A stretch of DNA of 64,000 bases from Candidatus Thorarchaeota archaeon (lineage in GTDB: Archaea > Asgardarchaeota > Thorarchaeia > Thorarchaeales > Thorarchaeaceae): the NCBI GenBank assembly GCA_019057475.1, contig DXJO01000022.1, positions 1-64,000 of the forward strand. Reading direction: 5' to 3'. Both the position numbers and the translations under genes were made by a program. Under the pieces are notes generated by a model. That model saw only the letters and a list, made by a program, of their open reading frames with translations, did not search any database and was not told the DNA's origin. Below are positions 20,010 to 34,068 of the stretch, in pieces. Each line of letters starts with the position of its first letter. Position 1 is the stretch's first letter.

Positions 20010-20669
20010 TTAGCTCTCAGCTTCACGCTCTCGTTCCTCACGGGCTTCCCTTTCCAGGTTGGCCAGAAGATCGTCGATCCGCTTCTCTTCAGACTTGCCT
20101 TTCTCACTGGAGATTGCTTCTCCCTTCGTTCGAAGTGGTGGCAGAACACCCTCTTTCTCCAGCAAGATTTCCGCTTCCATAGAATCAAGCTGGCGGTCAA
20201 TTCGCTCTTCTGCTTCTACTGAAGCCCCTGTTGTGGAAAGGTCCTCCGACAACAGCTCCCCGGCAATAGTTATGTGTTCGAAAGATTCTGATAGCTTATC
20301 AAGCTGCGTCTGAATCTCGATTGGAGTCAGAAGAGTCCGTGCCTCCATCAACGCTTCGTTTGCAATGCCGAATGCTCGCAGAACCTCAGCCTGATCTCTT
20401 GCCTCCTCAATATTTAGGAGTGCAGTTTCGAGGGTGAGAAACTGCTGCTGATAACGCCCCTTGCGATTCTCAAGGTCGACAACTATGCTCAGGTGTGATC
20501 TTGCAGATGTACGGTCGCCCTTTGCCATGGCTTCCTTCGCAGATTTTTGTTCCTCAGTCATTCTTGTTTCGAGACGTCGAACTCTAAGTGTCAGAGCATT
20601 CATTGTGCCCTTCATCTCAAGCATTCCGCGCTCAGCATCAACTTTCTTCTTGCCGCTCAGAAAACCCAT
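20010..20669 (-). CDS. ESCRT-III/Snf7-family protein (Vps20/32/60-like)
   Basis: Likely start MGFLSGKKK; helical core AKEAMAKGDRTSAR...LETALLNIEEARDQAEVLRAF...ANEAL; acidic C-terminus with LPPL and terminal helix. Confidence 0.82.
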   Translation of the reverse strand: MGFLSGKKKVDAERGMLEMKGTMNALTLRVRRLETRMTEEQKSAKEAMAKGDRTSARSHLSIVVDLENRKGRYQQQFLTLETALLNIEEARDQAEVLRAFGIANEALMEARTLLTPIEIQTQLDKLSESFEHITIAGELLSEDLSTTGASVEAEERIDRQLDSMEAEILLEKEGVLPPLRTKGEAISSEKGKSEEKRIDDLLANLEREAREEREREAES

Positions 20670-20780
20670 AGTATACACCGATGTTGGCCTTTCACAGTAA
20701 CTTGCCTTATAACGCCATTTAACCATTACGGGCAGATAGTATTATAGATAGTCATTCCTTCAAAGACATGAGAAGATACT

Positions 20781-22531: not shown

Positions 22532-22945
22532 CTATTCGTCAGACTTTTCATTTTCCATTTCGTTTGGTGATTCGGGCGCCTCTTTGGTGGCTTCAACTTC
22601 CTCCGGCTCGGCTTCTTCTTCCTCTGGAGCTTTGCTGGAATCCCCTTCCTCAGCTTCTTCGCTACCAGGTGAGAGTTTCAAGACCATGACATATCCAAGG
22701 GCAAAAGCAACTATCCCGAGAAGGATTGTGATCCAGAAAGTCCCGCCCGATCCGAACCACGCATTTGGATTGATCAACAGGTTTGACAGAGGAGTACCTA
22801 GCAATACATGCTGAACCCACATCGGCACTGTGAAAACAAGGGGCAGAGTGATAATCACTAGTATGATTGCCGACAGAACGATCTCGTATGTGTACGCGAG
22901 TATTCTACGAAAGGTGCTATCAATTGCGTTCTTTGCCTTGGACAA
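22532..22945 (-). CDS. Two-TM membrane protein with acidic tail
   Basis: Hydrophobic segments; AAGGAG SD upstream of TTG. Confidence 0.75.
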   Translation of the reverse strand: MSKAKNAIDSTFRRILAYTYEIVLSAIILVIITLPLVFTVPMWVQHVLLGTPLSNLLINPNAWFGSGGTFWITILLGIVAFALGYVMVLKLSPGSEEAEEGDSSKAPEEEEAEPEEVEATKEAPESPNEMENEKSDE

Positions 22946-23030
22946 TGTGTTCTCTCCTTAGCCAGTCGACCTGTGCCGCCTTTTTAATACTTACTCCAGA
23001 CGGATGCTATTCACATCAAGTCATCTACTC

Positions 23031-23135
23031 AAAAAGAGTGTAGGGGCCCAGAAAAAGCAAGTTTGCCAGCGCGTGTGTCTTAGGATGGATTCTTGAGAGA
23101 GGGAGGGAGAGATGGCAAACCGTTCGGGCCCCGCC
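23031..23135 (-). ncRNA. Candidate small hairpin RNA 1 (CU-rich loop)
   Basis: GGGGCCC/GGGCCCC and GTTTGCCA/TGGCAAAC stems (23043-23132); CTTATATG box at 23165-23158; CTCTTTTT downstream. Confidence 0.5.
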
Positions 23136-23250
23136 GAGTATTATTAGTTCCTATTAGCATATAAGTATATTGTCTGCGTAAGCATCCAACTCAATTCCAA
23201 GATGCTGATAGATCCTCTAAGCCGTAGTCAGGTCCGGGGAAAGAATAGAG

Positions 23251-23342
23251 GAAAAGTCAAGAAGGTGATGGCGGGGGGCCAGAGAACACTGAAGGAGGAG
23301 AGAGAATGGTGAATTTCAGGAGATGGCCCCCTTAGCCTTCAT
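23251..23342 (-). ncRNA. Candidate small hairpin RNA 2 (CU-rich loop)
   Basis: GGGGGCCA/TGGCCCCC, CTGAA/TTCAG, GAAGG/CCTTC stems (23261-23340); TTTAATAA box at 23370-23363; CTTTTCC downstream. Confidence 0.5.
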
Positions 23343-23574
23343 ACATGTTATTGTGGAATTTATTATTAAAGGAAATTAGGATATATACGCCACAAATATT
23401 ATCGCGATTTTCTCAATTCGGAGGGCTCAATTCACACATCCGCCCCTCTCAAGCAAGCAAAAAGGCAAGGCCTGATTTTGTTTGTGCCCCCCCACACTCC
23501 TCACTTGTTCATTGTTGGTGCGGCAATAAGCGTAGAAGTAGTTGCAGACCGGGGGGTTTGAGCAAAACGATGCA

Positions 23575-23979
23575 TTACAATTCGTGCGCTTGTTCCATTC
23601 GGGTTTGAATATGCATATTGGTGGGAGTACAGCCGTGAGAGAACACCTCGACGATAAAGGGGTTCCGAGCTTCCGCTACCTTAGTCCACATTGCGTTATC
23701 CCGTCGGTAGTATCGATAATCCAGATTACCGTGACGGACCTCTAGAATGGATTTTGCTGGCAGTTCCTCCAGATTGGTGACTTCAAGCTGATGACCGGGG
23801 TTTTCAGTGCCAACTGGGTTGGATAGGAAGAGCCTGAACACTTCGTCATTGGATGGCATGAGAACAGCAACATGTGGGCGATCGACAGAGTTCCACTTGG
23901 ATGGAACTGGGGGCTTGCGGCATGTGTACGCACCGATAGCGGAGCGCAACATCAGATAGGCACCCTTATCGATTATCAC
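23575..23979 (-). CDS. Hypothetical protein
   Basis: 134-aa ORF, GTG start with purine-rich leader. Confidence 0.55.
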   Translation of the reverse strand: MIIDKGAYLMLRSAIGAYTCRKPPVPSKWNSVDRPHVAVLMPSNDEVFRLFLSNPVGTENPGHQLEVTNLEELPAKSILEVRHGNLDYRYYRRDNAMWTKVAEARNPFIVEVFSHGCTPTNMHIQTRMEQAHEL

Positions 23980-30111: not shown

Positions 30112-30347
30112 TATTCTCTCTATCTCCTTTTCCGAGTCGAATCGGATGTCGTTCAGCTGTTGGTGCATGATAAAAGTGTTTTGTTGCAAGCGGACACACA
30201 TAGAAGTCAATCAGCATAAAGGACAAAGAATTGTTAAGCGAGCGAGGAATATGGATAGATGTTAGTCAACGAATGTATGCACTCCCAGAGAAACAGAACA
30301 AAAGCAAGGGAAGGGCGTGATGCCCTTTCCTACTAGGTAGTGCCATG

Positions 30348-33861: not shown

Positions 33862-34068
33862 TATCAGTCGATAGGTCGTCCTACTGCTATCCTTTTACTC
33901 TTTTCGAACTCATAGGTTGAAGGCATAGTTTTGTCTAGAGCAAAAAGCTGTCGCAGAAAGCAAGTTATATAAGTGCGACACAGAAGGACGACAAATCAGT
34001 GAAGGGATAGTGAAGTCATTTCGTAGTCCCGATAGTCAAAGATTCATATCCCCAAAGGAGATAGAGGA

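What the first reader, a model, noticed from the sequence alone, without database searches (positions are those of the whole stretch)
23031..23370. Two tandem hairpin-RNA candidates displaying anti-Shine-Dalgarno/anti-AUG sequence
Seen: in a ~630-bp ORF-poor gap two units share architecture but not sequence on the - strand: TATA-like box, about 25 nt, an 80-90-nt hairpin closed by a GGGGCC/GGCCCC stem, then a U-rich tract. Their CU-rich parts (CCAUCUCUCCCUCCCUCUCUC; UUCACCAUUCUCUCUCCUCC) are exact complements of a purine-rich leader + AUG. Genes here have such AG-rich leaders (oppA AAGGAGATAGAGAGAATAATGGCAA; oppD AAGGAGATAGAGGAATG). Inference: trans-acting translational repressor sRNAs, possibly an undescribed Asgard RNA family. 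Alternative: + strand mini-ORFs MANRSGPAEYY (ATG 23112) and MVNFRRWPP (ATG 23306) within hairpins.
Basis: partly seen in the sequence, partly recalled or inferred. Interest (0 to 1): 0.75.

Follow-up and report, generated by a model that had tools for sequence, protein, structure and literature searches.

The report
Two conserved CU-loop small RNA genes
The gap holds two real small non-coding RNA genes, separately promoted and conserved across one family of Asgard archaea, each holding open a pyrimidine-rich strand that resembles the ribosome's mRNA-docking sequence; they probably block translation starts, but no transcript or target has been shown.

Summary
On the minus strand there are two hairpin units, unit 1 at 23043-23132 and unit 2 at 23274-23331 (extended form 23266-23341). 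Each follows a TATA-like box about 26 nt upstream, is closed by a GC-rich helix and is followed by a U-rich tract.

Both units are conserved, single-copy and in the same gene order in one archaeal family:
- The unit 2 model matches 45 of 86 genomes in 8 of 16 genera. By eye, homologues occur in at least 11 genera.
- It matches none of 124 sampled genomes outside the family.
- The closing helices change sequence but stay paired: unit 2 is 95% paired with 6 of 7 pairs doubly changed; the unit 1 outer helices are 89-98% paired with 9 of 10 pairs doubly changed.
- The loop strand UUCUCUCCUCCUUC is invariant. It contains CCUCCU, also found at this genome's 16S 3' end.

Rfam has no match. The plus-strand mini-ORFs are not conserved as peptides.

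The most likely function is masking of AG-rich Shine-Dalgarno leaders in trans. That is inference only: no RNA data are available, no single strong target was found, and the enrichment test was not significant.

This scan has already noted look-alike tandem CU-loop RNAs on other Thorarchaeota DNA. I file this as a new member of a known kind, of moderate interest.

The parts
23043..23132 (-). Unit 1 RNA hairpin. Outer helix GGGGCCCGAA/UU.CUGGGCCCC, inner helix GUUUGCCA/UGGCAAAC, and a large loop.
   Evidence: Fold. Models R1/R3 score 101-125 bits here. Outer helices are 89-98% paired, with 9 of 10 pairs showing changes on both sides.
23095..23115 (-). Unit 1 pyrimidine tract CCAUCUCUCCCUCCCUCUCUC, unpaired in the predicted fold. 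Its length varies within the genus by insertions of 1 or 5 bases (C, or CCCCU).
23159..23166 (-). TATA-like box of unit 1 (CTTATATG), 26 nt before the helix.
   Evidence: The box ACTTATAT sits at a similar distance in genera g1, g3 and g9, and an AT-rich box in g8.
23031..23035 (-). U5 tract after unit 1, a likely archaeal terminator.
   Evidence: T-rich tails follow unit 1 in most genera.
23266..23341 (-). Unit 2 RNA. Core hairpin GGGGGCC/GGCCCCC at 23274-23331, with an outer extension UGAAGGC/GCC.UCA.
   Evidence: Fold z -2.7. Model R2 scores 83.8 bits. The helix is 95% paired, with 6 of 7 pairs changed on both sides.
23291..23306 (-). Invariant loop strand of unit 2, UUCUCUCUCCUCCUUC. It contains CCUCCU, as at the 16S 3' end, and is the likely seed.
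   Evidence: TCTCTCCTCCT is invariant in A4/A7 and conserved in all R2 matches. The 13-mer occurs about once per genome in 67 of 86 family genomes. The 16S tail is GGAUCACCUCCU.
23358..23372 (-). BRE/TATA-like box of unit 2 (CCTTTAATAATAAAT), 26 nt before the helix.
   Evidence: Conserved within the genus. Equivalent boxes (TTTGCTTAAATA, ATTATATTATATG) lie 30-40 nt before the helix in g2, g3, g4 and g5.
23238..23262 (-). U-rich tail after unit 2 (CUUGACUUUUCCUCUAUUCUUUCC).
22979..22990 (-). Separate TATA-like box (GTATTAAAAAGG) of the downstream gene. It is conserved as GTTTTAAAGG or ATGTTAAAAGG in other genera.
22532..22945 (-). Downstream gene in conserved order: a 137-aa two-helix membrane protein with an acidic tail, TTG start and SD AAGGAGAGAAC. 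No family assignment. It is context, not shown to be part of the system.
23575..23979 (-). Upstream gene in conserved order: a 134-aa protein with no Pfam, NCBIfam or Atlas match. Context only.

Best explanation
Two small RNA genes, each roughly 75-110 nt, are transcribed from the minus strand. Each has its own TATA-box promoter and ends at a U tract.

In each RNA the 5' and 3' ends pair in a GC-rich helix. This helix holds a 40-75 nt loop open and presents an unpaired pyrimidine strand. In unit 2 that strand is the invariant UUCUCUCCUCCUUC; in unit 1 it is a CUCCC/CUCUC tract. The strand contains the ribosome's anti-Shine-Dalgarno core (CCUCC) with CU-rich flanks.

The RNAs most likely pair in trans with purine-rich leaders (GGAGG with AG-rich flanks) of a set of mRNAs. 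That pairing would compete with the 16S 3' tail and lower translation initiation.

Shown here: the genes, the strand (by promoter and terminator conservation), the fold (by covariation), the conserved exposed strand, single copy and lineage restriction. Inferred: transcription, pairing with mRNAs and repression.
For: - Conservation pattern: within the genus there are two sharply conserved blocks, each made of a TATA box plus a hairpin, and conservation decays after the U tract.
- Order across genera: the same sequence of upstream gene, unit 2, unit 1, downstream gene, all on one strand.
- Strand: TATA-like boxes lie 26-40 nt before the helices in several genera and T-rich tails follow them, with nothing comparable on the other strand.
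- Fold: closing helices differ in sequence between genera (GGGGCC, GUGCUUGGGGC, AACUCAAGAGUC, GGCUUGGGGGUC, CUGGGAC, GACCCGA) but always pair.
- Seed: the loop strand is invariant across genera and unpaired in nearly all single-sequence folds.
- SD use: the genome uses SD sequences. GGAGG peaks at -16 to -12, and the 16S tail is GGAUCACCUCCU.
- Candidate sites: 52 candidate start regions have 9 or more contiguous pairs including GGAGG with the unit 2 core, against 19 for the 16S tail itself.
- Precedents: RBS-masking archaeal sRNAs (M. mazei sRNA154 and sRNA41, PMC5867862) and CU-loop bacterial sRNAs (cuckoo family, PMC4615179).
Against: - No RNA data: no listed sequencing run that holds the stretch is RNA.
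- No single outstanding target: the best ungapped complementarity elsewhere scores 35-39 against 75 for a perfect match. RNAduplex energies over 15,184 candidate start regions form a continuous distribution. The top candidates are functionally mixed.
- The excess of matching start regions is not significant against controls with shuffled CU flanks: 38-46 of 300 shuffles reach the observed count.
- Invariance of 14 nt is more than a generic SD mask would need. It could instead reflect a protein site or one specific partner that I did not find.
- My start-site set is crude, because no gene caller was available.
Confidence: 0.5

Rival explanations
1. The RNAs are real, but the invariant pyrimidine strand is a protein-binding platform, for example a sponge or scaffold for a pyrimidine-tract, KH, RRM or Sm-type RNA-binding protein. 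Alternatively it pairs with one conserved non-mRNA partner. In either case it is not a mask for many SD sites.
For: - Fourteen or more nucleotides are invariant across genera while everything around them drifts.
- No conserved perfect 13-mer target beyond the gene itself was found in 86 genomes. Counts are about one excess copy per genome, otherwise at the level of the reversed-pattern control.
- There is no significant enrichment of matching leaders.
Against: - No candidate protein was identified. The neighbouring genes have no recognisable RNA-binding domain.
- Seeds of bacterial base-pairing sRNAs are also often invariant over 10-16 nt (my own knowledge).
- The strand contains the exact anti-SD core of an organism that uses SD sequences.
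Confidence: 0.22
2. The two hairpins act in cis on the downstream membrane-protein gene. Read-through from their promoters would give a long leader in which a CU strand pairs with that gene's SD, in the manner of an anti-SD switch or RNA thermometer.
For: - Units 2 and 1 sit on the same strand directly upstream of the same small membrane-protein gene in every genus examined.
- In this genome the gene's leader AGAGAACAC is complementary to GUGUUCUCU of unit 2 over 9 nt (sequence).
Against: - Each unit is followed by a T tract, and the gene has its own conserved TATA box 40 nt before its start.
- The 9-nt match is not kept in other genera: their leaders read GGAGACAGC, GGAGCGAG, GGAGAAGAA and AGAGGAAUAC.
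- The upstream gene is equally conserved in position, so conserved order alone does not single out the downstream gene.
Confidence: 0.12
3. The functional strand is the plus strand. On it, SD-like GGAGG tracts are followed by tiny ORFs (MANRSGPAEYY, MVNFRRWPP). These would be leader peptides, or the toxin side of a type I toxin-antitoxin pair.
For: On the plus strand a start codon lies 5-10 nt after GGAGG in g1, g2, g3, g4 and g9 (sequences). The plus-strand folds are at least as stable, z -2.2 and -3.0.
Against: - The peptides are unrelated in sequence and length between genera (MVNFRRWPP, MTLYERMAP.., MRENGP, MDRAKQNGP..).
- The start codon is missing in g5, g7 and g8, and one species of the same genus has a 1-nt deletion in the ATG.
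- Conservation is highest in the 'SD' tract, not in the ORF.
- There is no conserved promoter on that side and no plus-strand gene downstream.
- The peptides are too short and too polar for type I toxins.
Confidence: 0.04
4. The units are a known guide RNA (C/D box or H/ACA), a tRNA-like element or a repeat element.
For: Unit 1 in this genome is followed by ACA directly after the helix (UACAC). The hairpins have large internal loops.
Against: - The ACA is absent in g2 and g3.
- There are no conserved C/D boxes.
- Rfam gives no match at gathering thresholds over the whole window, and only noise at E up to 10 in the gap.
- ARAGORN finds no tRNA.
- The units are single-copy in the genome.
Confidence: 0.02

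Closest known systems
Methanosarcina mazei intergenic sRNAs sRNA154 and sRNA41 (review PMC5867862; Buddeweg et al. 2017, cited there)
   Same: Archaeal, intergenic and separately transcribed. They are structured, with loops carrying anti-RBS sequence that masks ribosome-binding sites and represses translation. They are conserved only within a narrow lineage.
   Different: No sequence relationship. The fold differs: here a single end-to-end helix closes a very large loop. There are two tandem genes. The lineage is Asgard. There is no expression or target evidence here, whereas the Methanosarcina RNAs have experimental targets.
Cuckoo RNA family (CcsR / RSs0680 / alpha-r14) of Alphaproteobacteria (PMC4615179)
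   Same: An invariant CU-rich anti-SD-like motif is displayed in loops while the stems vary freely in sequence. Copies occur in tandem.
   Different: Cuckoo RNAs are one transcript of 2-4 adjacent short hairpins, each with the loop motif CCUCCUCCC, and they are bacterial. Here there are two separately promoted RNAs with 40-75 nt loops, the motifs are UUCUCUCCUCCUUC and CUCCCUCCCUCUCUC, and the host is archaeal. No Rfam model matched.
C-rich-loop sRNAs of Firmicutes such as RsaE/RoxS (own knowledge; RsaE appears in the list)
   Same: Unpaired C/U-rich motifs that pair with SD regions of several mRNAs.
   Different: Bacterial, with short UCCC motifs in small loops. There is no homology and the architecture differs.
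Look-alike loci noted earlier in this scan on other Thorarchaeota genomes (e1-5639636, e1-5485398, e1-5560393)
   Same: Separately promoted 'closed-loop' CU-rich RNAs conserved across a Thorarchaeota family. Those notes draw the same inference and meet the same lack of transcript and target data.
   Different: They lie on other DNA. I did not compare the sequences, so I cannot say whether e1-5639636 is the orthologous locus.

Membership tests
Trans-encoded base-pairing sRNA (generic class) | Own promoter and terminator, no coding potential | tested here: met
   TATA-like boxes are conserved 26-40 nt upstream and T tracts lie downstream. The ORFs on both strands are tiny and not conserved. Transcription itself has not been observed.
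Trans-encoded base-pairing sRNA (generic class) | Conserved, accessible seed region | tested here: met
   UUCUCUCCUCCUUC is invariant and unpaired in the folds.
Trans-encoded base-pairing sRNA (generic class) | Demonstrable mRNA target(s) | tested here: inconclusive
   No outstanding target was found, the enrichment was not significant, and the start-site set was crude.
Cuckoo / CcsR (alpha-r14) RNAs | 2-4 adjacent hairpins in one RNA, each loop carrying CCUCCUCCC (PMC4615179) | tested here: not met
   The motif CCUCCUCCC is absent. The loops are 40-75 nt and the two units have separate promoters.
Cuckoo / CcsR (alpha-r14) RNAs | Match to the family's covariance model | tested here: not met
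   There is no Rfam match at gathering score. At E up to 10 there are only three unrelated noise hits.
C/D box sRNA | Terminal C (RUGAUGA) and D (CUGA) boxes, with internal C'/D' boxes and 12-nt guides | tested here: not met
   No conserved boxes appear in the alignments. The only Rfam C/D hit scores 11.6 bits against a gathering score of 90, and it lies outside the hairpins.
H/ACA sRNA | ACA immediately 3' of the lower stem, a pseudouridylation pocket and a K-turn or K-loop | tested here: not met
   ACA follows unit 1 only in g1 and is absent in g2 and g3. No K-turn was seen.
Type I toxin-antitoxin | Opposite-strand ORF for a small hydrophobic toxin (about 20-60 aa), conserved as a peptide | tested here: not met
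   The plus-strand ORFs are 6-16 aa, polar and unrelated between genera.
M. mazei sRNA41/sRNA154 | Sequence or structure homology | not tested
The comparison is functional only.

The most novel reading that the evidence does not exclude
The pair may be a lineage-wide 'anti-SD mimic' system. Each RNA would copy the 16S 3' tail core with extended CU flanks. Acting as titratable competitors of the small ribosomal subunit, they would set translation of a whole class of AG-rich-leader mRNAs. This would be a global, RNA-based translation governor in Asgard archaea. The second RNA (unit 1, with its own conserved ACACGCGCUGRCAAAC element) would give a second input or target class.
Probability: 0.15. 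Interest if true: 0.7.

Novelty: new member of a known kind. Interest (0 to 1): 0.48.

Why it matters
In the papers I could search, nothing is described about regulatory RNAs in Asgard archaea: two searches found no Asgard or Thorarchaeota sRNA study. These two genes are cleanly delimited and supported by covariation. They have an obvious candidate seed, which gives concrete probes for metatranscriptomes and enrichment cultures. They also offer a way to ask whether SD-masking sRNA control operates in the archaeal lineage closest to eukaryotes. The covariance models built here could seed an Rfam family. The finding is not unique within this scan, and the function remains an inference.

Tried and rejected
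- Rfam: nothing at gathering score over the whole window, and only noise at E up to 10 in the gap.
- tRNA/tmRNA scan: none found.
- Sigma-70 promoter and intrinsic-terminator scan: at shuffle level, and not applicable to archaea.
- Paralogues in the own genome by BLAST: none.
- Public runs: no RNA holder listed. Only DNA holders from marine sediment and cold seep samples, one of which may be the source. Read laying was not used because contigs of DNA runs cannot show expression.
- Target search:
  - Exact 11-mers, ungapped scoring with G-U pairs, RNAduplex on 15,184 candidate start regions (the first attempt, timed out) and Pfam on the top candidates gave no coherent or outstanding target.
  - A family-wide search for the 13-mer target sequence found essentially only the sRNA gene itself.
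  - The flank-shuffle enrichment test was not significant.
- Neighbouring proteins: no informative Pfam, NCBIfam or Atlas result.
- MAFFT alignments across genera (A4-A7) were out of register for the helices, so RNAalifold on them found few pairs. Model-based alignments replaced them, with the caveat that such alignments lean towards the model's structure; the slid-partner controls argue against an artefact.
- Rejected readings: C/D or H/ACA guide RNA, type I toxin-antitoxin, repeat element, and functional peptides from the plus-strand mini-ORFs.
- Taxon: 'Thorarchaeota' comes from earlier notes of this scan. I saw only consistent signs, an Snf7 gene and an archaeal-type 16S tail, and did not verify it.

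Full report
**What is there.** The 630-bp gap lies between two minus-strand genes, 23575-23979 and 22532-22945. It contains two hairpins on the minus strand.

Unit 1 spans 23043-23132:
- It is closed by GGGGCCC/GGGCCCC, extended by G-U and A-U pairs.
- It has an inner helix GUUUGCCA/UGGCAAAC.
- Its loop carries CCAUCUCUCCCUCCCUCUCUC.
- CTTATATG lies 26 nt upstream and a U5 tract lies 7 nt downstream.

Unit 2 has its core at 23274-23331:
- The core is GGGGGCC/GGCCCCC. With an outer GAAGGC/GCC.UCA extension it spans 23266-23341.
- Its loop carries AUUCUCUCUCCUCCUUC.
- CCTTTAATAATAAAT lies 26 nt upstream and a U-rich tail lies downstream.

Only the stated hairpin length of 80-90 nt is too long for unit 2. 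Folding of the single sequences is only mildly better than shuffles, z -1.5 and -2.7. The case therefore rests on comparison with relatives.

**Conservation within the genus.** Four genomes of the same genus carry the whole gap at 80-88% identity. Aligned on the minus strand (A1), conservation is concentrated in two blocks. Each block begins at the TATA-like box and ends shortly after the hairpin. One species (G006) has a U-A to C-G double change in the inner helix of unit 1, and a 1-nt deletion that removes the ATG of the plus-strand mini-ORF in unit 2.

**Conservation across genera.** Short BLAST and nhmmer hits led to the same arrangement in other genera of the family. The order is upstream gene, unit 2, a spacer of 100-250 nt, unit 1, a TATA-like box, then the small membrane-protein gene, all on one strand. 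tblastn with both flanking proteins confirms this order in most loci.

I built three covariance models: R1 (unit 1, genus seed), R2 (unit 2, nine sequences) and R3 (unit 1, 18 sequences).

| Search | Matches at E <= 0.01 |
|---|---|
| R2, family | 45 of 86 genomes, 8 of 16 genera, almost always one copy |
| R2, phylum sample outside the family | 0 of 124 genomes |
| R3, family | 25 of 86 genomes, 5 of 16 genera |

- In the genomes where I compared the coordinates, the R3 match lies about 160-330 nt downstream of the R2 match.
- These searches used strict filters, and the models miss diverged copies.
- The 13-mer complement of the unit 2 core occurs in 67 of 86 genomes in 14 of 16 genera, with about one copy per genome in excess of the reversed-pattern control.
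- Inspecting those sites added clear unit 2 homologues in g7, g10, g11 and g12, each in the same gene context but with a quite different closing helix. That gives at least 11 genera.

**Structure.**

| Helix | Alignment | Cells paired | Pairs changed on both sides |
|---|---|---|---|
| Unit 2 closing helix | A11 | 95% | 6 of 7 |
| Unit 1 outer helix 1 | A14 | 97.9% | 6 of 7 |
| Unit 1 outer helix 2 | A14 | 89.3% | 3 of 3 |
| Unit 1 inner helix | A14 | 66% | 8 of 8 |

- For unit 1, sliding the partner columns by one drops pairing from 83% to 52-55%.
- The inner helix of unit 1 appears to be placed differently in g3, so I treat it as lineage-specific.
- These alignments were fitted to the models, which favours the structure.
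- Independent single-sequence folds of every genus give the same end-to-end helix with different sequences: GGGGCC, GGGGACC, GACCCGA, GUGCUUGGGGC, AACUCAAGAGUC, GGCUUGGGGGUC, CUGGGAC.
- The pyrimidine strand stays unpaired in nearly all folds.
- R1 and R3 weakly match unit 2 as well. The two units share architecture and may be old paralogues.

**Strand.**
- TATA-like boxes lie 26-40 nt before the helices in g1, g2, g3, g4, g5, g8 and g9. Their forms are ACTTATAT, TTTGCTTAAATA, ATTATATTATATG and TTTTATTATATG.
- T-rich tails follow the helices.
- The sequence on the other side has no such box.
- No plus-strand gene lies downstream.

I therefore take the minus strand as the RNA strand.

**Plus-strand mini-ORFs.**
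- A start codon lies 5-10 nt after GGAGG on the plus strand in g1, g2, g3, g4 and g9, but not in g5, g7 or g8.
- The peptides are unrelated and 6-16 aa long.
- Conservation peaks in the purine tract, not in the ORF.

A functional peptide is unlikely. The frequent CAU in the RNA strand may mean that the RNA mirrors a whole start region, but this feature is not conserved enough to rely on.

**Function.**
- The genome uses Shine-Dalgarno sequences. GGAGG peaks at -16 to -12 and GGTGA at -11 to -9 before first ATGs, and the 16S rRNA ends in GGAUCACCUCCU.
- The invariant strand of unit 2 contains CCUCCU with CU-rich flanks. It can therefore pair with GGAGG leaders that have AG-rich flanks, over a longer stretch than the ribosome can.
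- 52 candidate start regions offer 9 or more contiguous pairs including GGAGG, against 19 for the 16S tail.
- That excess is not significant against versions with shuffled CU flanks.
- No single site in the genome stands out.
- The best candidates have no functional theme: an AMP-binding enzyme, an EEP nuclease-like protein, an FAD-binding protein, a HerA-like ATPase and an ABC ATPase.

Masking of SD regions in trans is thus the best-supported mechanism by analogy with M. mazei sRNA154 and sRNA41 (PMC5867862) and with the cuckoo RNAs (PMC4615179). It remains an inference. A protein-binding role, or a cis role on the downstream membrane-protein gene, cannot be excluded.

**What it is not.**
- No Rfam family matches, and there is no tRNA.
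- There are no conserved C/D boxes, and the ACA after unit 1 is not conserved.
- It is not repeated in the genome.
- There is no type I toxin ORF.

**Novelty and verdict.** This is a real, uncatalogued, family-restricted pair of small RNA genes. The host is an Asgard archaeon, called Thorarchaeota in earlier notes of this scan. I did not verify that name beyond an Snf7 gene and an archaeal-type 16S tail. Two literature searches found no paper on Asgard or Thorarchaeota sRNAs. The design, a variable stem that displays an invariant CU-rich anti-SD strand, is a known kind. This scan has already reported look-alike tandem or clustered CU-loop RNAs on other Thorarchaeota DNA (e1-5639636, e1-5485398, e1-5560393). 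I class it as a new member of a known kind, of moderate interest.

Noticed in passing
window 23575-23979 (-): This is a 134-aa ORF with no Pfam, NCBIfam or Atlas match. It is 87-96% identical within the genus and 41-59% identical across genera, and it always sits upstream of unit 2. It is a conserved family-specific protein of unknown function.
   Followed up: partly
window 23400-23570 (-): This is the 3' region of the upstream gene. It holds a small hairpin GGCCUUGCC followed by U5, a likely terminator at about 23455-23475. Next to it is a partly conserved GC-rich element (GAGAGGGGCGGAUGUGUGAAUUGAGCCCUCC) that might be a further structured element.
   Followed up: no
G000 contigs outside the window: C42:332715-332747 (-), C24:50375-50457 (-), C29:258098-258182 (-), C26:71548-71612 (+): A crude scan found further intergenic hairpins with GC-rich closing stems and CU-rich loops. 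The C42 one carries UUUCUCUCCUCC, nearly the unit 2 core. The genome may hold more RNAs of this design.
   Followed up: no
L055:2619-2676 (-) and L054:377-434 (+) (genus g5): These are second R2-like hairpins (GAGGUU...AAUCUC closing helix, UUUCUCUCCUCCU loop) about 1.1 kb from the main unit 2 copy. In G053 (g10, L098) a single hairpin carries two CU motifs. In G066 (g5, L105) the motif CUCUCUCCUCCUUC sits in the 3' tail of unit 1. The copy number and layout of the CU strand therefore vary between genera.
   Followed up: partly
window 30118-30129 (-) and 34055-34066 (+): The identical leader AAGGAGATAGAG sits before an SBP_bac_5 (OppA-like) gene and before an ABC_tran/oligo_HPY (OppD-like) gene of a divergent peptide-transporter cluster. 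Two matches were found against 0.47 expected.
   Followed up: partly
window 20010-20726 (-): An Snf7 (ESCRT-III) family gene, consistent with an Asgard or TACK-type archaeon.
   Followed up: no
G000:C51 about 129,947-129,960 (-): This is the longest perfect complement to the unit 2 core outside its own gene (AAGGAGGAGAGAGA, 14 nt). It lies about 100 nt upstream of the ATG of a 187-aa-plus ORF near a contig end. It is not at a start codon.
   Followed up: partly
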